Shown here in pieces: positions 1,533-62,273 of a stretch of 64,000 nt of DNA. The stretch is taken from positions 3,524 to 67,523 of the forward strand of contig JAFRAS010000007.1 of NCBI GenBank assembly GCA_017405265.1, written 5' to 3'. Source of the stretch: Candidatus Saccharimonadota bacterium. GTDB lineage: Bacteria; Patescibacteriota; Saccharimonadia; Saccharimonadales; Saccharimonadaceae. A program made the translations under genes and the position numbers. Every line of letters begins with the position of its first letter. Position 1 is the first letter of the stretch. The notes below the pieces were generated by a model, which saw nothing but the letters and a program-made list of their open reading frames with translations, did not search any database and was not told the DNA's origin.

Positions 1533-1578
1533 GTTTTCAACAAAAAGCGTGTTTCGCGAAGCGAAACACCGTTGTTTG

Positions 1579-1721
1579 TGGAAGGGCGCGAAGCGATACT
1601 TCTTTTCCTTCGGAAAAGAAGTTAGAGCGAGCGACCTACCACAAAATACTCAATTTTTTGGAAGGGCGCGAAGCGATACTTCTTTTCCTTCGGAAAAGAA
1701 GTTAGAGCGAGCGACCTACCA
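1579..1721. repeat. Two identical 63-bp structured direct repeats (1579-1641, 1659-1721), family D
   Basis: TGGAAGGGCGCGAAGCGATAC-hairpin-GTTAGAGCGAGCGACCTACCA, period 80 bp; third copy at 53583. Confidence 0.9.
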
Positions 1722-24521: not shown

Positions 24522-24557
24522 TTTCCCACATTTTTATATTTGTGCTATAATTTGCTT

Positions 24558-25562
24558 ATGATTCTTTTCGACTCCGTTTCGAAATTCTATCCGGGCGACC
24601 AGCACCCCGCTCTTTTCGATGTCTCTCTCCACATCGCACCGAACGAGTTCGTTTTCTTGGTCGGGAAGTCCGGTGCCGGAAAATCGACCTTAATGAAACT
24701 GATTACGAAAGAAGAGCGCCAAAGCTCCGGCAAAATCATCATCGGCGGCATCGACCTCGACTACGTCAAAAAGCGCAACATCCCCCACTACCGCCGTCGC
24801 CTCGGCGTCGTGTTTCAGGATTTCAAACTTCTCCCCCGTCGCACCGTTTTCGAAAACGTCTCCTTCGCCTTAGAGATCGCCGGGATGAGCGGCCGCGAAA
24901 TTCGCCGCACCGTCCCGAAAGTCCTCGACCTCGTGGGACTCTTAGAACAAGCCAACAAATACCCTGACCAACTCTCCGGTGGCCAACAGCAGCGCGTCTC
25001 AATTGCCCGCTCCGTCGCCCGCCAGCCGAAAATCCTGATTGCCGACGAGCCGACCGGAAATTTGGATAAGCTGACCCGCCGCGAGATCGTCGACCTCTTG
25101 AAACGCATCAACGATTTCGGCACCACCGTCCTCGTCACGACCCACGACGAAAACATCGTGAACCTGTTGCAAAAACGCGTCATCACGATTAAAGACGGCC
25201 GCGTCGTCTCGGATCAAAAAGAAAACGGTGTCTATCGCCTCGGCACCGAGCCGAAAATCCAGCCCGTCGGCATTAACTTCTCGAGCAAGACGGGGAAGAA
25301 AACTGGCGAAAAAGCCGACCTCGACAAAGAACCGATAAAGTCCTATAACCCCGCTCGCCCGAACCCCTTCGCCATCCGCGACCGCGCCCGCGTGACAAAA
25401 GTCCCGAAACACGACGTAAAAAATACCACCGACGGCATGATTCCGCGTCGCGCTCCGCGCCCGCTGAAAGTCGCCGAAGAAACTCCAGTAAAGCCCGCCG
25501 CCGCCTTCTTCAACCGTCGCCACGCCCCCGCGAAGAAAAAGGAGATGAAGAATGGCAAATAA
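24558..25562 (+). CDS. ftsE: Cell division ATPase FtsE with C-terminal extension
   Basis: GKSGAGKST, VVFQDFKLL, LSGGQQQR, ADEPTGNLD; adjacent to ftsX. Confidence 0.94.
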   Translation: MILFDSVSKFYPGDQHPALFDVSLHIAPNEFVFLVGKSGAGKSTLMKLITKEERQSSGKIIIGGIDLDYVKKRNIPHYRRRLGVVFQDFKLLPRRTVFENVSFALEIAGMSGREIRRTVPKVLDLVGLLEQANKYPDQLSGGQQQRVSIARSVARQPKILIADEPTGNLDKLTRREIVDLLKRINDFGTTVLVTTHDENIVNLLQKRVITIKDGRVVSDQKENGVYRLGTEPKIQPVGINFSSKTGKKTGEKADLDKEPIKSYNPARPNPFAIRDRARVTKVPKHDVKNTTDGMIPRRAPRPLKVAEETPVKPAAAFFNRRHAPAKKKEMKNGK

Positions 25563-26568
25563 CGAAAACCGCCAAACCTCGAAAAGAAACATCCGTCGCA
25601 TGGCCCAGTCCGAGGGCAGCCATGTCCTCCGCGATTCCGCTCGCGTTTTGAAATACGGCACCGCGAACTTCGCCCGCAACTTCTGGCTCTCCGCCGCCGC
25701 CACTGCCGTGATGACGATTACTCTCATCCTCCTCTTTCTGACCGCCGCCGCGACCATCGTCCTCTCCGAGACTGCCGACTCGATGCGCGAAAAAATCGAC
25801 ATCACAATTTTCTTAAAACCGGGAACAAAAGATGCCACTCTCGGCCAGCTCACCGAAATTATCTCTGAAGATAAGAATGTGAAATCCGTCGTCGTCGCGA
25901 ACTCCGAACAAGAATTCGCCGCCTTCCTCGAGGAGAATAAGGACAACGCCGCCCTGATGGAGACTTTGGAAGACGAGGAAATGAAAGAAATAATGCTAAA
26001 AACCATGCAATCGACCATGCGCCTCAAAGTTTATAACGTCGAAGATCTGACCTCAATTAAGTCTATCGTCGAATCCGACCCTCTCTTCGTGACCAACCTC
26101 GACGAAAAAAAGGAACCGACCTACGACGTGAACGCCAGCGAAATCGCGACGATAACCTCCTGGGCCAACATCGCGAAAAACGGTGGCCTCGTCCTCTCCG
26201 CCATTTTCCTCACCGTCTCGATTTTGATTATCTTTAATACGATTCGCATGGCGATTTTCTCCCGTCGCGAAGAAATCTATATGGAAAAACTCATCGGCGC
26301 CTCGACCGGCTTCATCCGCGGCCCCTTCATCGTCGAAGCCCGAATTTACGGCATCATTGCTGGCCTGATTTCCGCCACTCTCTGCTACTTCGCCTTCCAC
26401 TTCGCCTCCCCCGCCCTGAACGGCTACGGGATTAACACTGGAACCATCGAAAAATACCTCGAATCCTCCTACCTTATCCTCTTCTATCTCGCCATGGTCG
26501 CCCTCGGGATGCTCATCGGCTCCCTCTCCGCCCACCTCGCCCTCCACCGCTACCTGAAAAAAGCCTAA
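25552..26568 (+). CDS. ftsX: Cell division permease FtsX
   Basis: RNFWLS, IFNTIRMAIFSRREEI..KLIGA..FIRGPF. Confidence 0.94.
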   Translation: MANNENRQTSKRNIRRMAQSEGSHVLRDSARVLKYGTANFARNFWLSAAATAVMTITLILLFLTAAATIVLSETADSMREKIDITIFLKPGTKDATLGQLTEIISEDKNVKSVVVANSEQEFAAFLEENKDNAALMETLEDEEMKEIMLKTMQSTMRLKVYNVEDLTSIKSIVESDPLFVTNLDEKKEPTYDVNASEIATITSWANIAKNGGLVLSAIFLTVSILIIFNTIRMAIFSRREEIYMEKLIGASTGFIRGPFIVEARIYGIIAGLISATLCYFAFHFASPALNGYGINTGTIEKYLESSYLILFYLAMVALGMLIGSLSAHLALHRYLKKA

Positions 26569-26580
26569 AAAGAACGAATC

Positions 26581-26624
26581 TGTGCGCACAATGTGTTGAC
26601 ATTGTTTTGCGCACGTGCTATAAT
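26581..26624 (+). promoter_or_regulatory. TA promoter with overlapping inverted-repeat operator
   Basis: TTGACA(26596)-17bp-TATAAT; GTGCGCA-CAATGT..ACATTG..TGCGCAC spans the -35. Confidence 0.8.
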
Positions 26625-26644
26625 GGATTTAGAAAGGAATTATT

Positions 26645-26953
26645 ATGCGTGAAGCCATGACCGCGAATATCAACGTTCGCACCACCCCAAAGCTCAAGGC
26701 AAAAAGCCAGAAACTTTTTGAGGATTGGGGGCTCGACACCTCCACGGCCATCAATATGTTTTTAAAAGATTGTGTCCGCGAAAAATCCTTGCCTTTCCGC
26801 TTCACTCGGGAAGAAGCTCGTTATGTTCCGAACGCTGAGACGGTCGAGGCACTTAAAGAAGCCAAAGAAATTTCGAAAGACAAAAACGCGGTGGGCTATA
26901 CTAATATGAAAGATTTTGTGAGTGCCCTCCATGACGAAGTTAAAAAAGCCTAA
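26645..26953 (+). CDS. dinJ: RelB/DinJ antitoxin
   Basis: INVR..LK....F...GLD.STAINMFL.......LPF, PNAETVEALKE. Confidence 0.9.
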   Translation: MREAMTANINVRTTPKLKAKSQKLFEDWGLDTSTAINMFLKDCVREKSLPFRFTREEARYVPNAETVEALKEAKEISKDKNAVGYTNMKDFVSALHDEVKKA

Positions 26954-27254
26954 TTTTTTCGACGCATCAGACCTAAAATACGAAATTAGACCTACAAAGC
27001 AATTCATAAAGGACTATAAAAAGGCTCTCCTCCGCGGAAAGAAAGAGAAGAAAATACTCGATGTAATTTTTACACTCGCCAAGGGCGAAAAATTACCTCT
27101 GAAATTTCGCGAGCATAAGCTCGCTGGTGAGTATAGCGATTATTTCGAGTGTCACATCGAACCGGACTGGCTGTTGGTCTATTATCTCGAGGAAAATCAC
27201 CTCGTTCTCGTGCTCGCCCGCACCGGCTCCCATTCCGACCTTTTTGGAAAGTAG
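26922..27254 (+). CDS. yafQ: YafQ-family mRNA interferase toxin (start could be ATG 26931)
   Basis: F.KDYK, EHKLAG, ECHIEPDWLLVY, RTGSHSDLF. Confidence 0.93.
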   Translation: MPSMTKLKKPNFFDASDLKYEIRPTKQFIKDYKKALLRGKKEKKILDVIFTLAKGEKLPLKFREHKLAGEYSDYFECHIEPDWLLVYYLEENHLVLVLARTGSHSDLFGK

Positions 27255-27287
27255 CTCGACTTTTCCCTGCATTTGGAGTATAATAGA

Positions 27288-27339
27288 TATATTCGGGAAT
27301 ACCCGCACCGCCCTGGTCAAAAGACCAGGGAATACTTTT
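27288..27339 (+). ncRNA. Candidate three-way-junction small RNA, copy 1
   Basis: TCGACT-17bp-TATAAT then TATATTC-GGG AATA CCC-GCACCG-CCCTGGTC AAAA GACCAGGG-AATAC-TTTT. Confidence 0.65.
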
Positions 27340-27401
27340 CCACAGCCAACGATTTTTAATTTCCTCTCCACATTTCATTCTGCTCATGTTATAATCATTT
27401 C

Positions 27402-30400
27402 ATGATGGTCAAAAAGAAACACGGCTTTTCTTTCAAAACGAAATTTTTGTTGAGTCTCTTTGCTGTTTTTCTTTCTGTCTCCGTTTTTGTCATGAACAAC
27501 CGCTCTGTCTTCGCTGCCGGCGAAGGCGACTGCTATGCTTCCGGCGGTACCTGGCGCGATGGCACTTGTGACTGCGGCTCCGGCCGCACCGTTGGCGCCG
27601 ATGGTCGTTGCGTTCCTTCCGATACGATAATTGACCAAATACAAGGCGGGTCAACCAATGCGATTTACAAAAAATCGTTATTTCTTGGCGCGTATGAATG
27701 TTATACTAATCACGCTAAGATCGGCAACGAATTCACCGCCGGTAGCACCAGATTTGGCAGCAACACCTTTTTTAACGACAATGACATAATTTACCTACCC
27801 ACTGGATTCGAAAATTCACTACATTCATCCAGGGAACACTGCGAATATGTTATGAGCGGTTTTCACGGGAATGACGATAATAATAGCCGAGGAAACGATT
27901 ATTCCACGGGTCTTTTGGAAGAGTTCAACAAAAGTCGCTGGAAACCAAATGCAATAGGCGAAGAGGGCATGCAAAATCTTGGCCTAATTGAACAAGCCGG
28001 TGGCAATAATAAAAAATACGTGCTTAAATTTCAGCTTACTCCCGCCGGAGGTCAGACCACAGAATATACTATAACATACGAGAATCATTCCGCTACTATT
28101 ACTCCTGCCGCTGAAGGCGAAAATTTATGCAATACTACATCCGGACCATGGGGCTCGGCAGACCCCTTTGCTATATGTACGGCTGGAGGATACAGAGTCG
28201 GATGGGCTCATATCGGTAATAACTGGGCTACTTTTGATATGCATAATAGATTTGCGCTGGTAGATAGTAGTAATAGTGTATTAGACGCACAGGGCACGGG
28301 CGGATGGCTATATATATGCAACGACAAAACGCATTTTTCTAGAGAAATTAGCGGCGGCATAATTAGTATGGATTGTGGCGGTACCTATGAGACCACTATT
28401 AATTATGATAATAATGCTCCTACACTTACGGCGATGACTTATGTCGAGGAATCGTCTGAAGGTAGCGGCAAGTATAAGTTCTCCGATCCCCCAGCTGGTA
28501 GTTTTTGGAATATGGTAAAATCCATTACCGGCAAAAATGTCGCCGAGAACATATCCCAGTTTTATTTGACCCCAGACGAGCAAAAAACTTTATATATGAC
28601 CTATATTAACGGCGTCATACATAATAGCGACCTTAAATTCTCTTCTACATGTTACGCTCAGGGTTCAAGCGAATTCCAGGCCGCGAGAACTAATGGAAAC
28701 TATATGGCCATTAATAATGGGCAATGGTGTCTCCTTGAGGGCATGGACTCATTGAATCAGAATAGCGCATGGGATAACATGAAACTAAATGGAAGCGGGA
28801 GCAAAGTGATTAGTCGGGAGGGAAAATTTGCCGTTGTAACTGCCCAGGACGCATCGAAAAATGGCACTAAGCTCGGAGCGACACAAGATAGTTATATTGA
28901 TGCGTTGCGAGAAGTTATAAGATTATTAATGGCTCTCGACGAATTTATTGATGCCGGACAAGAGATACCTACGGTAACACCGACGTCTTCCTCTGAGGAC
29001 TCCGTCTGTCTCAAAGAAAACGCCGCGGGCGCGGTGAGCTGGGCGATTTGTCCAACCATGGAAGGTCTCGCCGAAGGCTCAGACGGCATCTATGCTCTAA
29101 TCAAAGACTATCTAAGGATCGACGCCGACCTTCTCAAAATCGGTGATGGTCACGACGGCACTTATCAAGTCTGGCAATATTTCGTCGGCTTCGCCAATGT
29201 CTTCGCCGTGATTTTTCTCCTCTTTATCGTCTTCTCCCAAGTCACCGGTTACGGAATTAACAACTACGGCGTGAAAAAAGCCCTCCCGAAGCTCCTCGTG
29301 ATGGTGCTTTTAATCAATCTCTCCTTCCTCATCTGTCAGCTCGCCGTTGACCTTTCGAACGTCATCGGCCAGAGCCTGAGTTTGCTTTTAAACTCGGTCG
29401 CTAAGACTGCAATAGGCAATGTCTCCAATCTCACCGTCAGTGCCGCCGGTGTCGGCGAAGTGAATTGGATCCAGGGTTTTGCTATTGGTGGCGCTACTAT
29501 GGGAAGCCTTGTTCCGACCATTATTACAGTTCTTATGTCCACCACTGGTTGGATTGCGGTAATTCTCATTATCTTTGCCGTCCTTGCCATGTTTATCGCT
29601 GTCCTCGCAGTCTTCGTGATGCTCGCCGCTCGCGAAATTTTGGTCGTTGCTCTCGTTGCGCTCTCTCCGCTCGCCTTCGCTTGTAACATTTTCCCCGGTA
29701 CTGAAAAAATCTTTAAGCGCTGGTTTGATATTTTTAAAGGCATGCTTCTTATCTTCCCAATCGCCAGCGGCCTCTACGGCGTCGGTTGCATCATTCAGGC
29801 TATTATTATCTCGTCCCAAGGCGGGCATCTTCAAGTCTGGGAAAGTATCATTGCCGCCCTCGCCCCGATGGCTCCCTTCGTCGCTCTCCCCGGCCTCCTC
29901 CGCTCCTCTCTGAACGCCGTCGGCAACATCGGCACCACAATCCAAGGCCTCGGCAACCGCGCCCGCGGCGGTTTGAACAATGCCTCCCGCGCCGTCCAAA
30001 ACTCCGAACGTGGCCGCGAAGCTCAGCGCCAGCGCCAGATGAACCGCGACGAGCGCATCGTGAACCGTCTCCGCCAACGCGAAGCGAACGGTGCCACCCT
30101 TAGCGACTATAACCGTCGTCGTCTGAATCGCCACGCCGCTTCTTTTAATGCTGCTACGCGCGAGGATATTGCAGCTCAAAACGCCAACCCTGAACTTCTT
30201 GTTGCCGGTACCGCCGCCTACGAAGCTATGGCTGCCGGCGTCCAAAATAAAGAACGCGAAAGCCGCATTGGCGATCGGGTAATGTTATTACAAAACAATA
30301 ATCCCGATAACAACACTCTCTTTACTATGTATCAAGATGCAATTAATTCTGGCGATAATGAGCAGGCCGTCGCGATTGCTCGCTACGCCGGTCGCAGTAA

Positions 30401-31169
30401 GCCGACCGCTAATCAATTTGCTGATTATATCAGAACAAACGGCGGGGTCATGAATCGCGAAGTTGCTCGCGAAATTATGACTGGTGCCAGCGCCGGAACC
30501 TATAAGGCCGCCACCGGCACCCTCTATGAATATGCCTCCCAAATTCATACCAATGACACAGATCATCAAGTTTTCGATGGTGGTGGCAATATTAGAGACT
30601 ACGCCGACTGGGCCACTGCCGATCTCGTCGACGCGCATACTGGCGAACACTATTCGAACATTTCTCTTGCTGTCGAACATAATATGTCGAAGCCCGAGGA
30701 GCTCGCTGGCCAAGGCCGCAGTACTTTGAGCGAAGTCGAGCACGCCAAAAATGGCGTCGCCCACTCCTATACTTCCGGGGCTAACACTAGAAATGTCAAC
30801 TTTACTGCTGGTCGCACCTTTACCGCCGCTGGCAACCAAGCCCTCGAGCGCAACGCCGCCGGCGCCCTCGCTCTCGAAAACGTCGACAACACGAAAGAGC
30901 AAAACTACCGCAATATCGCCAACGGTCGCGGCACCATCGCGCAAGAAAACGCCGCCGCTGCCGCCGATATTGCTGCCGCTCGTCAATCCGACACTCTCGC
31001 CGGCACTTATCGCGACGGCGCTGGTAACATCCGCCGCGTCGTTCGCAACGCCGACGGCACTTATAGCCTCTTCGACGGTAGTAATGTTCAGGTCCACATC
31101 CGTCGTGGTCCTACCAACGCCAACGATGTCGACAGTAATCTTCGTGGCGGTGGCTATACTAAAATCTAG
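27402..31169 (+). CDS. Large polytopic membrane protein with VirB6/TrbL-like core
   Basis: Signal peptide, Cys-containing extracellular region, TM block with LPKL..LLINLSF.ICQLAVDLSN and SPLAFAC..FPGT. Confidence 0.7.
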   Translation: MMVKKKHGFSFKTKFLLSLFAVFLSVSVFVMNNRSVFAAGEGDCYASGGTWRDGTCDCGSGRTVGADGRCVPSDTIIDQIQGGSTNAIYKKSLFLGAYECYTNHAKIGNEFTAGSTRFGSNTFFNDNDIIYLPTGFENSLHSSREHCEYVMSGFHGNDDNNSRGNDYSTGLLEEFNKSRWKPNAIGEEGMQNLGLIEQAGGNNKKYVLKFQLTPAGGQTTEYTITYENHSATITPAAEGENLCNTTSGPWGSADPFAICTAGGYRVGWAHIGNNWATFDMHNRFALVDSSNSVLDAQGTGGWLYICNDKTHFSREISGGIISMDCGGTYETTINYDNNAPTLTAMTYVEESSEGSGKYKFSDPPAGSFWNMVKSITGKNVAENISQFYLTPDEQKTLYMTYINGVIHNSDLKFSSTCYAQGSSEFQAARTNGNYMAINNGQWCLLEGMDSLNQNSAWDNMKLNGSGSKVISREGKFAVVTAQDASKNGTKLGATQDSYIDALREVIRLLMALDEFIDAGQEIPTVTPTSSSEDSVCLKENAAGAVSWAICPTMEGLAEGSDGIYALIKDYLRIDADLLKIGDGHDGTYQVWQYFVGFANVFAVIFLLFIVFSQVTGYGINNYGVKKALPKLLVMVLLINLSFLICQLAVDLSNVIGQSLSLLLNSVAKTAIGNVSNLTVSAAGVGEVNWIQGFAIGGATMGSLVPTIITVLMSTTGWIAVILIIFAVLAMFIAVLAVFVMLAAREILVVALVALSPLAFACNIFPGTEKIFKRWFDIFKGMLLIFPIASGLYGVGCIIQAIIISSQGGHLQVWESIIAALAPMAPFVALPGLLRSSLNAVGNIGTTIQGLGNRARGGLNNASRAVQNSERGREAQRQRQMNRDERIVNRLRQREANGATLSDYNRRRLNRHAASFNAATREDIAAQNANPELLVAGTAAYEAMAAGVQNKERESRIGDRVMLLQNNNPDNNTLFTMYQDAINSGDNEQAVAIARYAGRSKPTANQFADYIRTNGGVMNREVAREIMTGASAGTYKAATGTLYEYASQIHTNDTDHQVFDGGGNIRDYADWATADLVDAHTGEHYSNISLAVEHNMSKPEELAGQGRSTLSEVEHAKNGVAHSYTSGANTRNVNFTAGRTFTAAGNQALERNAAGALALENVDNTKEQNYRNIANGRGTIAQENAAAAADIAAARQSDTLAGTYRDGAGNIRRVVRNADGTYSLFDGSNVQVHIRRGPTNANDVDSNLRGGGYTKI

Positions 31170-48964: not shown

Positions 48965-49011
48965 TTATACCACACTTTCCATTTTTTGTCAACTGATGCT
49001 ATAATTTTCTT

Positions 49012-49713
49012 ATGAAATCTAAAGAAGAGCCCACCTCCCGCCACCAGGATGCTACGGTCCCCGCAGACTACCCCTATAACAAGCGCCCGAACCCCCTCGA
49101 GAGACTAATTTACTTCCTCCTCTTCCTCTACGCGAAATTTCACCTAAAATTCATCTTGAAAACCACTGTAAAAAACAAGAAAATCCTCCCGAAAAACTCC
49201 CCCTTCTTCCTCTACGCGAACCACACCCAACCCCTCGGCGACCCCTTCCTCGCCGTCACTCTGTTCTACCCGAACACCCCCCGCGTCCTCGTCTCCCCGG
49301 CGAACCTCGGGATTCCTTTCATCGGCCGCTTTCTCCACCTCGCCGCCCTCCCCATCCCGAGCGACTTGAAAACCCTGAAGCGCTTCAATCGCGCTTTGAA
49401 AGACGCTTACGAAACCAATCACCCCATCATCATCTTCCCCGAGGCCCACGTCCTCCCTTATTGCCCGATCATCCGCGAAATCTCCGAAAAATCCTTCCGC
49501 CCCGCCGCGAAACTCCGCTCCGACGTTTACGTCATGACCACGACCTACAAAAAGCCCAAATTCGGCAAAAAACCGAGAATTATCGTCCACCTCGACGGCC
49601 CCCTCTCCCCCGACCCTGCCAAAACCGCCTCTGAAAACGCCTCCTTCCTCTGCACCACTACCCTCAAAACCCTCCACTCTCGCACCAAAAACAATTACAT
49701 CTATTACCCATGA
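49012..49713 (+). CDS. PlsC-like glycerolipid acyltransferase
   Basis: ANHTQPLGD and IFPE blocks. Confidence 0.78.
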   Translation: MKSKEEPTSRHQDATVPADYPYNKRPNPLERLIYFLLFLYAKFHLKFILKTTVKNKKILPKNSPFFLYANHTQPLGDPFLAVTLFYPNTPRVLVSPANLGIPFIGRFLHLAALPIPSDLKTLKRFNRALKDAYETNHPIIIFPEAHVLPYCPIIREISEKSFRPAAKLRSDVYVMTTTYKKPKFGKKPRIIVHLDGPLSPDPAKTASENASFLCTTTLKTLHSRTKNNYIYYP

Positions 49714-49737: not shown

Positions 49738-50127
49738 ATGGAAGAAAAACGCTTCAGGGAGTGGATTGAATTAAAGGAAAGAATTCATTTTAGCAATTCC
49801 TTGCCAAAAATCAAAGAGGACGACATTTGGTGGTGTAGCTTTGGCGAGAATGTCGGCATAGAAATTAACGGTAAAAATAAGCTCTTTTCTCGCCCAGTTT
49901 TCATCTACAAAAAGCTCAGCCGCTTCGGTTTTATAGGCATACCACTGACTTCGCAGGACAAGACCGGCTCGTGGTATGTGAAATTCGATTTCCAAAACAA
50001 GCCCCAAACCGCCGTATTGTCCCAGATTAGAACCTTCAGTGTTTCTCGGCTTTCGAGCCGCATGGGGAGACTAGACAAAAGCGACGCAAGGAAGATTAGG
50101 AACGCAGCCAGAGCATTTTTTAGCTAA
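49738..50127 (+). CDS. Orphan PemK/MazF-family toxin
   Basis: DIWWCSFGENVGIEINGK..FSRPV..IPLTS..QIRT. Confidence 0.88.
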   Translation: MEEKRFREWIELKERIHFSNSLPKIKEDDIWWCSFGENVGIEINGKNKLFSRPVFIYKKLSRFGFIGIPLTSQDKTGSWYVKFDFQNKPQTAVLSQIRTFSVSRLSSRMGRLDKSDARKIRNAARAFFS

Positions 50128-50176
50128 AAAATATTCCCAACTCTTTCGAGTTGGGCCGCGGCTATTGCCGAATATA
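50126..50176 (-). ncRNA. Candidate three-way-junction small RNA, copy 2, convergent with pemK
   Basis: Minus-strand TTGACA(50210)-17bp-TATAAT then TATATTC-GGC AATA GCC-GCGG-CCCAACTC GAAA GAGTTGGG-AATA-TTTTT. Confidence 0.7.
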
Positions 50177-50226
50177 CCCTCATTATATCAAACATTAAGC
50201 GCTTTGTCAATAGTCAAGGCCAAAAG

Positions 50227-50392
50227 AAGCTCCGAGAAAACTGCTTTTTCGCTGTTATGAAAAAACTCTCTATTTTGAAATTTTTGCGAAACAAGCCGAG
50301 TACGCGACAGTCCGCGACGCAGGCTTGACTTGAGCAAAAATTTCAAAGAGAGATTTTTTCATAGGCGAGAAAAAGTAGTTTTCTCGGAGCTT
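50227..50392. repeat. 166-bp imperfect palindrome, family A
   Basis: AAGCTCCGAGAAAAC...GTTTTCTCGGAGCTT; core alignable to 1782-1947. Confidence 0.9.
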
Positions 50393-50416
50393 TTACAAAT
50401 GTGCTATAATAAACTT

Positions 50417-51610
50417 ATGTTTATCCGCCGAAACCACAAAAACCGCGAAAACCTCGAAACTCGCAAAAAACACCTAAAAGGTGACACTTTAGTCGAAGTC
50501 ATGCTCGCCATGGCCGTCTTCGGCGCGGTGATTATTTCGACCGTCAGCATCATGAACCACGGCCTCCAATCCGCCGAAGCCACCCTCGAGGACTCCATGG
50601 CCCGAAACGCCATCGACGTCCAAGCCGAATCCCTCCGTTTCGTCGCCGAAGTTTACACCGCCGAAATCCGCGTTGACCCGACGAAATACGAATACGCCGC
50701 CGTCTGGAAATACATCACCGACCACGCCGTCGCCCCCGCCGAATTCGAAGCAAAATACCGCTACGGCTCCCTGACCTGCACCGATTATTACGACGACTCC
50801 GAGCTAAACTCCGAATCCTCGAAGGTCAAGGCCGGCGAAAGCTTCGTCCTGAACCCCCACAAACTCGATAAAACCTCCGCCCACGACGCCATCTCTTACT
50901 TCTCCACCGGCGCCGACGAGTCAAAAGTCAAAAAAATCGTCATTCCATCGAAAGACAACGACAATTTTATCCCCGCCGACACCTACCCTCGCCTCATTTT
51001 CGACTCCGATTTGAACGCCAACTTGATCGACGAGGGAACAAGAGAATCCGTGAGCCAGGTCGCCGGCCTCTGGGTCACCGCCGTCTGCGACAGCACCGGC
51101 GTCGTCGGCAACCGTTGCAACGCTTACAATGTCACCAACGCCCCAAAATACTACGATTTCTACATCCGCACCTGTTGGACCCCGCCCGGCTCCGACTTTG
51201 CCACCACCATCGGCACCACCATCCGCCTGAAAAACCCTGCCATCACCGCCAGCACCACCGGCTCCGGCGTCGTCACCCCGACCGTTTACAACATCACCTA
51301 CGATTTCAACGGCGGCCGCTTTGAGACTGAACTCGAAACCACCTTCTCCGACATCGCCTCCACTCTCGCCGGCGGCTCTCTGAATGTCCGTGCTCTCTCC
51401 GACCTCACCTACCGCGCCCACCTCTCTCTGAACTACTGGACGACGAACGCCGACGGCTCCGGCACCCGTTACTACCCTGGCTCCTCTATTACCCCGCCCG
51501 ACAACATGACCCTCTACGCCCAGTGGCGCGACGTTACCTGCGCCGACTACCGCGCCGACCCCTCCCTTACCCTCCCCGACGGCCTAACTTGCGACGAGGA
51601 GGACTCCTAA
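50417..51610 (+). CDS. Type IV pilin-like protein with C-terminal InlB B-type repeat
   Basis: KG|DTLVEVMLAMAVFG prepilin motif; ITYDFNGG..WTTNADGSGT.Y..G....N.TLYAQW. Confidence 0.85.
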   Translation: MFIRRNHKNRENLETRKKHLKGDTLVEVMLAMAVFGAVIISTVSIMNHGLQSAEATLEDSMARNAIDVQAESLRFVAEVYTAEIRVDPTKYEYAAVWKYITDHAVAPAEFEAKYRYGSLTCTDYYDDSELNSESSKVKAGESFVLNPHKLDKTSAHDAISYFSTGADESKVKKIVIPSKDNDNFIPADTYPRLIFDSDLNANLIDEGTRESVSQVAGLWVTAVCDSTGVVGNRCNAYNVTNAPKYYDFYIRTCWTPPGSDFATTIGTTIRLKNPAITASTTGSGVVTPTVYNITYDFNGGRFETELETTFSDIASTLAGGSLNVRALSDLTYRAHLSLNYWTTNADGSGTRYYPGSSITPPDNMTLYAQWRDVTCADYRADPSLTLPDGLTCDEEDS

Positions 51611-52092
51611 TGTTCCTCGAATCCTCCACCTCACTCCAAAAATCCCGCCGCCGCGCGAAAAAATCCGACCGTTCCTTCTCTGATTTCGCCCGCATTATCG
51701 CCGCCGCCGTCATCGTCATCTCTGTCCTCACCCTCGCCGTCAACGTCGCCATGAACGAAATTTTCCGCGAAGACCGCGTCGCCGAGCGCGCCCTCGCCTC
51801 CCTCGCGAAGGATTACTACGAAAATTACTATTTCGACCATTTCAAAGAAACCACCTCCGACCCCACCGACACCTTAAAAAAATACTCCGAAATCGGCTTC
51901 CCCTCCGTCTCTCTCCGCCAGCTCCTCCTCGTGGACAACCGCCGTTTCGCCCCTTATGCCTCCTCCTTTAAAAACTCCCGCTATGCCTGTAACCAGGAAC
52001 TCACCACCATAAAAATCTACCCGAAAGAGCCTTACGGAAAAACTGACTACGACGTAAAGCTCAATCTCTCCTGCTCCTGGCTAAATTCGTGA
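51610..52092 (+). CDS. Hypothetical single-TM protein
   Basis: ATG overlaps the upstream stop; one TM; native codon usage. Confidence 0.7.
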   Translation: MFLESSTSLQKSRRRAKKSDRSFSDFARIIAAAVIVISVLTLAVNVAMNEIFREDRVAERALASLAKDYYENYYFDHFKETTSDPTDTLKKYSEIGFPSVSLRQLLLVDNRRFAPYASSFKNSRYACNQELTTIKIYPKEPYGKTDYDVKLNLSCSWLNS

Positions 52093-52104
52093 TATAATTA
52101 CCTT

Positions 52105-53406
52105 ATGAAAAAGTTCAACACCTCCCCCGTCTCTGGCACCGAGGAGTTTCTCCCCGCGACCCAGCGCATTTTTGACGCTTACCTCGAGAAAATCCGCGAG
52201 GTTTACCACAAAAACGCTTACCAGAATCTCGAGACTCCCCTGATTGAACGCACCGAAGTTCTGTTGAAAAAAGCCGGTGGCGACACCGAAAAACAGATTT
52301 ACAAACTAATAAAAACCTCCGAAGACCCCTCGGATTCCTCCGAAGCTCTCCGTTTCGACCACACTGTCCCCCTCGCCCGCTACGTCGTCGAACACGAAAG
52401 CTCCCTCGCTTTCCCCCTGAAAGTCGCCCAAATCGGCCCCTCTTTCCGCGGCGAGCGCGCCCAGCGCGGTCGTTTCCGCGAATTCATCCAAGCCGACATT
52501 GACATCTTAGGCCGCGGCTCCCTCGACGAATTCTACGATTTCGACGTCATTTCGACCCTTTATTCCGCCCTCTCCTCCCTTGACGTCCCCGGCGTTTTCG
52601 TTCGCATCTCCTCCCGCCGCCTCTGGAATGCCCTCTTTTCCGCCCTGGACATCACCGAAAAATCCGCCGAAATTCTCGGTATTATCGACCACGCCGAAAA
52701 AGTCCCCGAAGAAAAAACCCTCGCCTCTCTGAACTCTCTCGGCCTCCCCGAGGGCTCCGTCGAGGTTCTCTTGAAAGCCCTCTCTGTTCACGGTTCTCTC
52801 GACGCCGTTTCCGCCCCCCTCTTCTCTTTGGCCGAATCCCTCTCTTATCACGATTTTTCTGCCTCCCTCGGCTCTCTTCTTGCCCTCGCCTACTCTCTGG
52901 AATCCGCCGGCGTCGCCTCCGAGGTTGACCTCCGCATCGTCCGCGGTCTCGATTATTACACCGGCACTGTTTTCGAGTTCGGTCTAAAAGACTTCCCCGA
53001 AGTCGGCTCCATCGCCGGTGGCGGAAGATACGAGAATTTGACCTCCTATTTCTCCGACCAAAAATTCGAAGGCGTTGGTGGCTCGATTGGCTTCTCTCGC
53101 CTCTTCTTCGCCCTCCGCGAGAAAAACCTCCTCCCTGCCCCCTCTCTCCCCGTTGACTACCTTTTCATCCCCATCACCCCCGACGACCGCCTCTATTCCG
53201 CCTCTCTGGCCCAAAAAACGCGAGAGTACGGCCTTGTCGCCGACACCCTTTATATGACGAAGCCTCTCTCCGATCGCCTCTCTTACGCCTCAAAAATCGC
53301 GAAATACGCCGTAATAATCGGCGAATCCGAGCGCCAGGGCGGCGAAATCACGAAAAAAGACCTCGAATCCGGCGAAAAATCCCTTTTCAGCCTTGAAAAT
53401 CTTTAA
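52105..53406 (+). CDS. hisS: Histidyl-tRNA synthetase
   Basis: LRFDHTVPLARY, FRGERAQRGRFREF, VRGLDYYTG, GGGRY. Confidence 0.97.
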   Translation: MKKFNTSPVSGTEEFLPATQRIFDAYLEKIREVYHKNAYQNLETPLIERTEVLLKKAGGDTEKQIYKLIKTSEDPSDSSEALRFDHTVPLARYVVEHESSLAFPLKVAQIGPSFRGERAQRGRFREFIQADIDILGRGSLDEFYDFDVISTLYSALSSLDVPGVFVRISSRRLWNALFSALDITEKSAEILGIIDHAEKVPEEKTLASLNSLGLPEGSVEVLLKALSVHGSLDAVSAPLFSLAESLSYHDFSASLGSLLALAYSLESAGVASEVDLRIVRGLDYYTGTVFEFGLKDFPEVGSIAGGGRYENLTSYFSDQKFEGVGGSIGFSRLFFALREKNLLPAPSLPVDYLFIPITPDDRLYSASLAQKTREYGLVADTLYMTKPLSDRLSYASKIAKYAVIIGESERQGGEITKKDLESGEKSLFSLENL

Positions 53407-53429: not shown

Positions 53430-53504
53430 GGTCTCGTAGTATAGCGGTTAGTACATCGGGTTTTCATCCCGACAATGCGGGTTCGACTCCCGCCGAGATC
53501 ACCA
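53430..53504 (+). tRNA. tRNA-Glu(TTC)
   Basis: GGTCTCG/CGAGATC acceptor, TCGGG-TTTTCAT-CCCGA arm, TTCGA loop, CCA. Confidence 0.97.
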
Positions 53505-53582
53505 CGAAATTAGCGACGCTTTGGCGTCGCGTTTTTTACGAAGTAAAAAACGGGCTTTTGCCCCGCAGAAGCCCTAATTTCG

Positions 53583-53645
53583 TGGAAGGGCGCGAAGCGA
53601 TACATCTTTTTCGAAGAAAAAGATGTTAGAGCGAGCGACCTACCA
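53583..53645. repeat. 63-bp family D repeat
   Basis: Flanks identical to the 1579/1659 copies; central hairpin ACATCTTTTTC-GAA-GAAAAAGATGT. Confidence 0.9.

Positions 53646-60834: not shown

Positions 60835-62273
<1,439 letters not shown>

What the first reader, a model, noticed from the sequence alone, without database searches (positions are those of the whole stretch)
27256..27339. Second copy of the same RNA motif immediately 3' of the yafQ toxin
TCGACT-17-TATAAT begins just after the yafQ stop and is followed by TATATTC-GGG AATA CCC-GC..-CCCTGGTC AAAA GACCAGGG-AATA-C-TTTT. The AATA loop, linker GC and termini are conserved while stems covary. Both copies in 64 kb abut RNase toxin genes of different folds, here co-directionally.
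Basis: seen in the sequence. Interest (0 to 1): 0.8.

Follow-up and report, generated by a model that had tools for sequence, protein, structure and literature searches.

The report
Orphan small RNA behind yafQ
The element after yafQ is a real, intact gene for a ~50-base two-hairpin RNA, but it is a stray copy of an RNA that normally sits tail-to-tail with an antidote-less MazF/PemK toxin and is probably that toxin's antidote; its place beside yafQ looks incidental.

Summary
At 27256-27339 there is a sigma-70-like promoter, then AUAUUC, a 4-bp hairpin (CGGG-AAUA-CCCG), a GC-rich terminator hairpin and a U-run.

It is homologous to the copy at 50126-50215(-). A covariance model also finds two further copies on other contigs, so this 519-kb Saccharibacteria genome holds four.

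Across 151 genomes of the genus, 70 carry the RNA. Of 115 copies with flanks examined:
- 78 face an intact PemK/MazF-like gene tail-to-tail, with the U-run typically overlapping its stop codon.
- 15 face a PemK stump.
- 22, including this one, have no PemK trace.

YafQ is not a regular partner. Of 14 yafQ genes in the genus, only this one abuts the RNA, and dinJ-yafQ already has its own protein antitoxin.

The best reading is an orphan copy of the PemK-partner RNA. This RNA is a probable RNA antitoxin, like CJpv3 facing pVir0047 on the Campylobacter jejuni plasmid pVir. The orphan copy also supplies the only predicted terminator for the dinJ-yafQ operon.

This scan has already reported the PemK-RNA pair on this genome (copy B) and on several other genomes. 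About half of the orphans do lie beside other toxin-type genes, without fixed geometry, which fits clustering in accessory islands.

The parts
26596..26624 (+). Consensus promoter (TTGACA-17-TATAAT with TG) of the dinJ-yafQ operon
   Evidence: 12/12 match
26645..26953 (+). dinJ/relB-family antitoxin gene
   Evidence: Pfam RelB 8.7e-12; NCBIfam RelB_DinJ 4.4e-18
26922..27254 (+). yafQ-family toxin gene (RelE fold); stop codon 27252-27254
   Evidence: Pfam YafQ_toxin 1.4e-31; similar to solved YafQ/HP0894 structures, down to 1.4e-17
27256..27284 (+). The small RNA's own promoter: -35 TCGACT, 17-nt spacer, -10 TATAAT, no TG extension
   Evidence: 10/12; slightly weaker than the family mean of 10.6
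27288..27339 (+). Orphan copy (copy A) of the ~50-nt PemK-partner small RNA
   Evidence: covariance model R1, 65.3 bits, E = 3e-13; fold z = -4.9
27294..27305 (+). Hairpin 1: CGGG-AAUA-CCCG, the conserved and covarying 5' stem-loop
27311..27339 (+). Hairpin 2 (8 bp, loop AAAA) plus AAUAC-UUUU: intrinsic terminator of the RNA and the only predicted + strand terminator after yafQ
50126..50215 (-). Copy B of the same RNA gene with a 12/12 promoter, convergent with PemK
49738..50127 (+). Solo PemK/MazF-like toxin gene, the regular partner of the RNA family; its stop codon abuts the U-run of copy B
   Evidence: Pfam PemK 6.3e-9; AlphaFold2 model pLDDT 83.5, and the top 50 Foldseek hits are all MazF family (MazF, YdcE, MoxT and similar)

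Best explanation
27256-27339 is an orphan paralogue of a small-RNA gene family whose regular place is tail-to-tail with an antidote-less PemK/MazF-type endoribonuclease gene. The family RNA is about 50 nt. It starts about 7 nt after a strong -10 box with AUAUUC, forms a conserved 4-bp hairpin, and ends in a variable GC-rich terminator hairpin plus U-run. It is most likely the RNA antitoxin of PemK. By inference it pairs with the toxin mRNA's 3' end, which must run across the RNA gene, in a type I-like way; direct binding to the toxin (type III-like) is not excluded. Copy A has lost, or never had, a PemK neighbour. It sits at a lineage-specific rearrangement after ftsX, directly behind a complete dinJ-yafQ module. 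It is probably still made, both from its own promoter and as the 3' end of the dinJ-yafQ transcript, which its terminator ends. If it has a function, it is probably a spare antidote acting in trans on the genome's three PemK toxins: its first 18 nt are identical to those of the copy on contig C4. It is not a partner of YafQ. Shown: the sequence, fold, family membership and gene-neighbour statistics. Inferred: expression, the antitoxin role, and any action in trans.
For: Family membership:
- R1 E = 3e-13. There are four copies in the genome, and the other three each face one of the genome's three PemK genes.

Partnership with PemK:
- 70 of 151 genus genomes carry the RNA.
- Of 115 copies, 78 face an intact convergent PemK, with a modal overlap of 2 nt between the U-run and the stop codon (36 of 78). 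A further 15 face PemK stumps.
- In the reverse direction, about 118 PemK hits were found in 66 genomes. Of 20 that lacked a model hit, most show a divergent promoter plus two-hairpin RNA at the stop codon.
- No conserved protein antitoxin ORF lies beside PemK in the loci clustered.

RNA structure:
- Hairpin 1 is paired in 100% of cells, with compensatory changes in 3 of 4 pairs. The terminator stem covaries in 8 of 8 pairs.

Toxin identity:
- The fold is MazF-like.

Precedent:
- A PemK homologue on C. jejuni pVir (30634-31038) is faced by a promoter-driven hairpin RNA.
- Dugar et al. 2013 list it as CJpv3: 77 nt, 31119 to 31043, very strong TSS, seen on Northern blot (PMC3656092 supplement).
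- A pVir antisense RNA, CjrA, is described as a type I antitoxin (PMC10470494, PMC7826846).
- The same arrangement occurs on Nitratiruptor and Helicobacter suis plasmids.

Orphan status and the terminator role:
- No PemK trace lies within 1300 nt.
- The only + strand terminator after yafQ is the RNA's own.
- yafQ adjacency is 1 in 14.
- None of 27 relatives has dinJ, yafQ, the RNA or the large ORF after ftsX.
Against: - No expression data for this organism could be obtained.
- The antitoxin role is inferred from gene neighbourhood and from a Campylobacter precedent whose primary paper is not held. I could not verify that CjrA is CJpv3, or that CjpT is pVir0047.
- A purely cis-antisense mechanism does not explain why the 5' 18 nt are nearly invariant across loci whose toxins are only 42-71% identical to the window's PemK.
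- Copy A's promoter is weaker than those of the three PemK-paired copies in this genome (10/12 and no TG, against 11-12/12 with TG), so it may be a decaying relic.
- The 5' part of the RNA shows no extra complementarity to toxin translation-initiation regions.
Confidence: 0.6

Rival explanations
1. Copy A is a neutral relic: what is left of a PemK-RNA module after the toxin was deleted or displaced during the rearrangement that brought dinJ-yafQ next to ftsX. It is retained only because its hairpin terminates the dinJ-yafQ transcript.
For: PemK stumps with intact RNA genes are common (15 of 115). Some apparent orphans keep a PemK remnant only a few codons long after the U-run, as in L009 and L061, by my reading of the output. 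Copy A's promoter lacks the TG extension and has a poor -35. The locus lies at a synteny break. The hairpin is the only terminator after yafQ.
Against: Copy A scores among the best family members (65.3 bits), with a perfect hairpin 1 and a consensus TATAAT. Orphans as a class keep promoters (mean 9.8 against 10.6), though finding them with the model biases the sample towards intact ones.
Confidence: 0.25
2. The RNA is a general companion of RNase or other toxins of several folds (PemK, YafQ, CdiA_C-like, VapC). For example it could be a shared antidote, decoy or regulator, and it would serve YafQ here.
For: About 10 of 22 orphans lie within 700 nt of another toxin-type gene: 6 CdiA_C-like, 1 VapBC, 1 Fic, 1 RelA/SpoT-like and 1 DinJ-YafQ. 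CdiA_C-like genes occur beside the RNA only where PemK is broken or absent (0 of 78 against 10 of 37).
Against: There is no fixed geometry: the neighbours are convergent, divergent or co-directional, at 34-334 nt. CdiA_C-like genes are very common (at least 235 hits in 112 of 151 genomes), and only about 10 are near the RNA. Thirteen of 14 yafQ genes lack a directly adjacent RNA. The yafQ and vapC genes at these loci carry their own protein antitoxins.
Confidence: 0.08
3. The RNA is a protein-binding (type III-like) inhibitor or pseudosubstrate of the MazF-fold toxin rather than an antisense RNA. Copy A would then inhibit all three PemK paralogues directly.
For: AUAUUC and hairpin 1 are nearly invariant across loci with diverged toxins, while the terminator stem drifts freely. 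ToxN, which is inhibited by the RNA ToxI, has a Kid/MazF-like fold (from my own knowledge). No complementarity to toxin 5' regions was found.
Against: There are no tandem repeats and no upstream placement as in ToxIN. The Campylobacter RNA CjrA is described as an antisense type I antitoxin. Nothing here tests binding.
Confidence: 0.2

Closest known systems
CJpv3 small RNA facing pVir0047 (PemK/MazF family) on Campylobacter jejuni 81-176 plasmid pVir; probably the cjrA/cjpT type I toxin-antitoxin pair of Shen et al. 2016
   Same: The toxin is homologous (36% identity over 80% of the query, E = 1e-11). The RNA gene is convergent, has a strong -10 box, folds into hairpins, and ends a few nt past the toxin stop codon. 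The RNA was detected experimentally (77 nt, Northern blot).
   Different: CJpv3 is longer (77 nt, about three hairpins) and has no recognisable sequence similarity to this RNA. Copy A has no PemK neighbour at all. The identity of CJpv3 with CjrA was not verified here.
Type I toxin-antitoxin systems with convergent 3' overlap (txpA/RatA, bsrG/SR4 of Bacillus subtilis; from my own knowledge)
   Same: A small antisense RNA with its own promoter and terminator converges on the 3' end of a toxin gene.
   Different: Those toxins are small membrane peptides, whereas here the partner is a MazF-fold RNase. Overlap with the toxin mRNA is inferred, not shown. Copy A has no cis target.
Type III systems (ToxIN, CptIN, TenpIN; from my own knowledge)
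   Same: An RNA antidote for an endoribonuclease, whose fold is Kid/MazF-like in the case of ToxN.
   Different: Those antitoxins are tandem repeats upstream of the toxin, in the same operon, and are processed by the toxin. Here there is a single unit with its own promoter on the opposite strand.
Orphan (solitary) antitoxin genes and 'anti-addiction' modules (from my own knowledge)
   Same: An antidote gene kept without its toxin, in a genome that holds related toxins elsewhere.
   Different: The known examples are proteins. Action in trans is untested here.

Membership tests
PemK-partner small RNA family of this Saccharibacteria genus (model R1) | Sequence and structure match: AUAUUC, a 4-bp hairpin, then a GC-rich terminator hairpin, an invariant A and a U-run | tested here: met
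   65.3 bits, E = 3e-13; fold; column counts
PemK-partner small RNA family of this Saccharibacteria genus (model R1) | Own sigma-70-type promoter whose -10 box ends 3-6 nt before the model start | tested here: met
   TCGACT-17-TATAAT, 3 nt before the model start; the family mode is 5 nt
PemK-partner small RNA family of this Saccharibacteria genus (model R1) | Convergent PemK/MazF-like gene whose stop codon meets the U-run | tested here: not met
   No PemK ORF or tblastn fragment within 1300 nt; the downstream neighbour is a co-directional 1255-aa ORF
Type I toxin-antitoxin antitoxin RNA | Antisense overlap with, or base pairing to, the toxin mRNA | tested here: inconclusive
   For paired copies, no toxin-strand terminator is predicted before the RNA gene, so overlap is likely. 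There is no pairing with translation-initiation regions. Copy A has no cis target, only 18 nt identical to the C4 copy.
Type I toxin-antitoxin antitoxin RNA | Toxin is toxic and the RNA neutralises it | not testable with these tools
   Needs expression assays
Type III toxin-antitoxin (ToxIN-like) | Tandem direct repeats of the antitoxin RNA upstream of the toxin, in the same orientation | tested here: not met
   Single unit, opposite strand. A few loci hold two tandem copies of the whole gene, not processed repeats.
DinJ-YafQ type II module (is the RNA part of it?) | Recurrent adjacency of the RNA to yafQ genes | tested here: not met
   1 of 14 yafQ genes in 151 genomes abuts the RNA; one more lies about 1.1 kb away across a PemK module
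Any Rfam family | Match at the gathering threshold | tested here: not met
   Only two tRNAs in the whole window

The most novel reading that the evidence does not exclude
Orphan copies such as this one are kept on purpose as trans-acting spare RNA antidotes. They would protect the cell against its own or incoming PemK toxins (anti-addiction). Or the RNA is a broader toxin-island element that newly arriving toxin cassettes (YafQ, CdiA_C-like) recruit, here as a shared terminator and regulator.
Probability: 0.15. Interest if true: 0.65.

Novelty: new member of a known kind. Interest (0 to 1): 0.38.

Why it matters
The PemK-RNA pairing is of real interest. MazF-family toxins are textbook type II toxins with protein antidotes, so a widespread subfamily apparently controlled by a tiny RNA is barely described. 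That pairing has already been reported by this scan, including for copy B of this window.

What this finding adds:
- About a fifth of the RNA genes survive without any toxin.
- One of them has become the 3' end and terminator of an unrelated toxin-antitoxin operon.
- Such orphans gather in toxin-rich islands.

This is useful for annotating Saccharibacteria genomes and for choosing constructs to test action in trans. It does not reveal a new kind of system.

Tried and rejected
- Metagenome scan: an exact scan for copy A's terminator found nothing.
- Primary paper: Shen et al. 2016 is not held. Searches for cjpT gave nothing relevant, and the supplements of PMC7826846 give no coordinates for cjrA.
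- Three-way junction: a closing helix (5' UAUU with 3' AAUA) is paired in 78% of cells, has no compensatory change, and is unpaired in 8 of 22 sequences at two positions. It is not supported.
- Trans pairing with translation starts: the RNA's 5' end against toxin translation-initiation regions gave -10.3 kcal/mol for cognate pairs and -10.35 for shuffled RNA. Rejected.
- PemK remnant downstream of copy A: none by tblastn or by eye.
- Other searches: no Rfam match, no PADLOC match for PemK, YafQ or the CdiA_C-like protein, and no PDB sequence match for PemK.
- Integron attC site: considered from memory and rejected, because the element has no GTTRRRY core and carries its own promoter.
- A fifth model hit in the genome (C4:26753-26794, E = 0.03) is an ordinary terminator without hairpin 1.

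Full report
**The observation**

The yafQ stop codon lies at 27252-27254. It is followed by TCGACT (27256-27261), a 17-nt spacer and TATAAT (27279-27284). Then come TATATTC, the hairpin C-GGG/AATA/CCC-G (27294-27305), GC, the 8-bp hairpin CCCTGGTC-AAAA-GACCAGGG (27311-27330), AATAC and TTTT (to 27339).

The consensus scans list the promoter (10 of 12, no TG extension) and the terminator hairpin. RNAfold gives the two hairpins as the minimum-energy fold: -20.9 kcal/mol, z = -4.9, and none of 200 shuffles folds as well. Pfam, NCBIfam and similarity to solved structures confirm that the upstream genes are a RelB/DinJ antitoxin and a YafQ toxin.

**How many copies this genome holds**

The window lies on contig 3 of a 519-kb, 8-contig, 86%-complete genome.

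An 18-nt core pattern finds three copies. A covariance model built from 22 copies (R1) finds a fourth, more diverged one:

| Copy | Place | Context |
|---|---|---|
| A | window 27288-27339 (+) | directly behind yafQ |
| B | window 50126-50176 (-) | convergent with a PemK gene |
| C | contig 4, 6964-7011 (-) | convergent with a PemK gene |
| D | contig 5, 2060-2111 (-) | convergent with a PemK gene |

The genome has exactly three PemK/MazF-like genes, and copies B, C and D each converge on one of them, with the U-run meeting the stop codon. Copy D has CGAC-AACUA-GUCG in place of CGGG-AAUA-CCCG, so two pairs are changed on both sides. Copy A is the odd one out.

**The family in relatives**

R1 finds the RNA in 70 of 151 genomes of the genus, about 130 hits. 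I fetched flanks for most of them and located 111 copies there. With the four copies of this genome, that gives 115.

Clustering all flanking ORFs gives one dominant neighbour, a PemK-like ORF on the opposite strand immediately downstream:
- 78 of 115 copies have an intact convergent PemK. The modal overlap between the model's 3' end and the stop codon is 2 nt (36 of 78).
- 15 more have a tblastn-detectable PemK fragment.
- 22 have none. One of these lies at a contig end.

In the reverse direction, about 118 PemK-like matches occur in 66 of 151 genomes. Twenty of them had no model hit. When fetched, most showed a diverged RNA of the same build at the stop codon: a -10 box, AUAU(U)n, a short hairpin, then a terminator hairpin. 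The pairing is therefore close to universal for this toxin subfamily.

No conserved small ORF that could be a protein antitoxin emerged beside PemK. An AlphaFold2 model of the window's PemK (pLDDT 83.5) matches MazF-family structures in all of the top 50 Foldseek hits.

**RNA structure**

Over 108 distinct sequences, hairpin 1 is paired in 100% of cells. Three of its four pairs change on both sides (G:C to A:U in 22 sequences, to C:G in 15; C:G to U:A in 2). All eight pairs of the terminator stem also change on both sides. Sliding the partners by one column drops pairing to 48-57%. That alignment was fitted to the model, so the counts lean towards it. The independent MAFFT alignment of 22 sequences gives the same picture.

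A closing helix between the 5' UAUU and the 3' tail has no compensatory change and is broken in a third of sequences at two positions. I do not accept a three-way junction. The single-stranded AUAUUC and an A just before the U-run are nearly invariant.

**Is yafQ a partner?**

No.
- The YafQ family has 14 genes in 13 of 151 genomes.
- Comparing coordinates with the RNA hits, only the window's yafQ directly abuts the RNA.
- One other (G103) lies about 1.1 kb away, on the far side of a PemK gene that has its own two RNA copies.
- The second yafQ of this very genome (contig 2, 10652-10915) has no RNA.
- dinJ-yafQ is a complete type II pair with its own 12/12 promoter.

**What the orphans sit next to**

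Among the 22 orphans, the neighbours within 700 nt include:
- a stand-alone CdiA_C-like protein (PF18451, about 1e-9) at six copies;
- a VapC-Phd pair;
- Fic proteins;
- a RelA/SpoT-like protein;
- DinJ-YafQ;
- housekeeping genes (ribosomal proteins, YchF, an inositol monophosphatase, an epimerase).

The CdiA_C-like genes lie convergent, divergent or co-directional to the RNA at varied distances. They are very common in the genus (112 of 151 genomes, at least 235 hits), so about 10 of them near the RNA is enrichment of the accessory-island kind, not a one-to-one partnership. One oddity: they occur beside the RNA only where PemK is broken or absent (0 of 78 against 10 of 37). Some of these loci are related, so the contrast is overstated.

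**The local history of copy A**

In 27 of 27 relatives examined, the gene after ftsX is the homologue of contig 4, 135.8-136.8 kb, of this genome. None has dinJ, yafQ, PemK or the 1255-aa ORF there. Copy A therefore lies at a lineage-specific rearrangement or insertion.

The nearest relatives are only about 57% identical in FtsX, so the steps cannot be traced. I found no PemK remnant in the 62 nt between the U-run and the next gene's start codon.

**What copy A probably does**

The only predicted + strand terminator after yafQ is the RNA's own second hairpin. The dinJ-yafQ transcript should therefore run through copy A and end there.

Copy A also keeps a consensus -10 box at the right distance, though with a poor -35 and no TG. 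Orphans as a class have slightly weaker promoters than paired copies (mean 9.8 against 10.6; TG in 41% against 68%).

Its first 18 nt are identical to those of copy C and differ at two compensating positions from copy B. It could therefore stand in for them, whether the mechanism is pairing with the toxin mRNA's 3' region or binding the toxin. I rate "spare antidote" and "relic used as a terminator" as the two live readings for copy A itself.

**Mechanism of the family**

On the toxin strand of copy B's locus, no terminator is predicted before the RNA gene. The toxin mRNA should therefore be fully complementary to the RNA, as in type I systems that overlap at their 3' ends.

The RNA's 5' end shows no special complementarity to toxin translation starts. 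The near-invariance of AUAUUC and hairpin 1, across toxins that are only 42-71% identical to the window's PemK, is not explained by cis-antisense pairing alone. It keeps a protein-binding (type III-like) mechanism open.

**Comparison with what is known**

tblastn finds homologous PemK genes on plasmids of Campylobacter, Helicobacter and Nitratiruptor. On C. jejuni 81-176 pVir the gene (30634-31038) is faced by a -10 box and hairpins ending just past its stop codon. The same arrangement holds on the Nitratiruptor and H. suis plasmids.

The supplement of Dugar et al. 2013 lists this RNA as CJpv3: 77 nt, 31119 to 31043, between pVir0047 and pVir0048, detected on Northern blot, with a very strong transcription start (PMC3656092). 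Two papers cite Shen et al. 2016 for CjrA, an antisense RNA that is the antitoxin of a type I system on pVir. That paper is not held, so the identity of CjrA/CjpT with CJpv3/pVir0047 remains my inference. Rfam has no matching family.

**Earlier notes of this scan**

The scan had already reported the PemK-RNA pair for copy B of this window and for several other genomes. Those notes gave me the lead to pVir and to Dugar et al. I checked both myself.

**Verdict**

The element is an orphan member of a PemK-partner small-RNA family, and its adjacency to yafQ is incidental. As a finding it is a new member of a barely described but already noted kind, and its interest is modest.

Noticed in passing
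L042:1720-2103(-), L009:1649-2038(-), L025:1041-1466(-) and others: Stand-alone CdiA_C-like (PF18451) genes of about 127-141 aa are very common in this genus (112 of 151 genomes, at least 235 hits). Beside the small RNA they occur only where PemK is broken or absent (0 of 78 against 10 of 37 copies). In L009 one sits where most of PemK used to be, which suggests toxin-cassette replacement.
   Followed up: partly
L043 (G101:C22), ORF ending next to the small RNA; also the long open frames (G109:C2, G109:C39, G190:C68, G034:C20): Some PemK-like genes carry an in-frame N-terminal HTH (XRE-like) extension, giving ORFs of 212-237 aa, and still have the convergent RNA.
   Followed up: no
window 26568-27401 compared with G000:C4:135800-136830: Synteny break after ftsX. 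In 27 of 27 relatives the gene after ftsX is the homologue of a gene that lies on contig 4 in this genome. Here ftsX is followed by dinJ-yafQ, the orphan RNA and a 1255-aa ORF with no Pfam match.
   Followed up: partly
window 1542-1641, 1622-1721, 53546-53645: A ~100-nt repeat (76-79% identity) lies just downstream of two tRNA genes (tRNA-Ala at 1423 and tRNA-Glu at 53430), twice in tandem at the first site.
   Followed up: no
window 24522-24561, 48976-49015, 50381-50420, 52069-52108, 27384-27404: A recurring TGnTATAAT box lies 6-7 nt before an ATG, which suggests that many genes here are transcribed as leaderless mRNAs.
   Followed up: no
L018 1468-1519 and 1661-1712; L058 1601-1658 and 1725-1777; L017 1500-1563 and 1612-1677: Several loci hold two tandem copies of the whole small-RNA gene ahead of one PemK gene or stump.
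   Followed up: no
window 61313-61405 (-): ARAGORN calls a tRNA-SeC here, but Rfam's tRNA model does not match at the gathering threshold. It is probably a false call.
   Followed up: no
L048 904-1602 and L055 904-1602: At two orphan RNA copies, an inositol-monophosphatase-family gene converges on the RNA with its stop codon overlapping the U-run, the same geometry as PemK.
   Followed up: no
G000:C2:10652-10915 (-): A second yafQ-family gene in this genome has no copy of the small RNA near it.
   Followed up: partly
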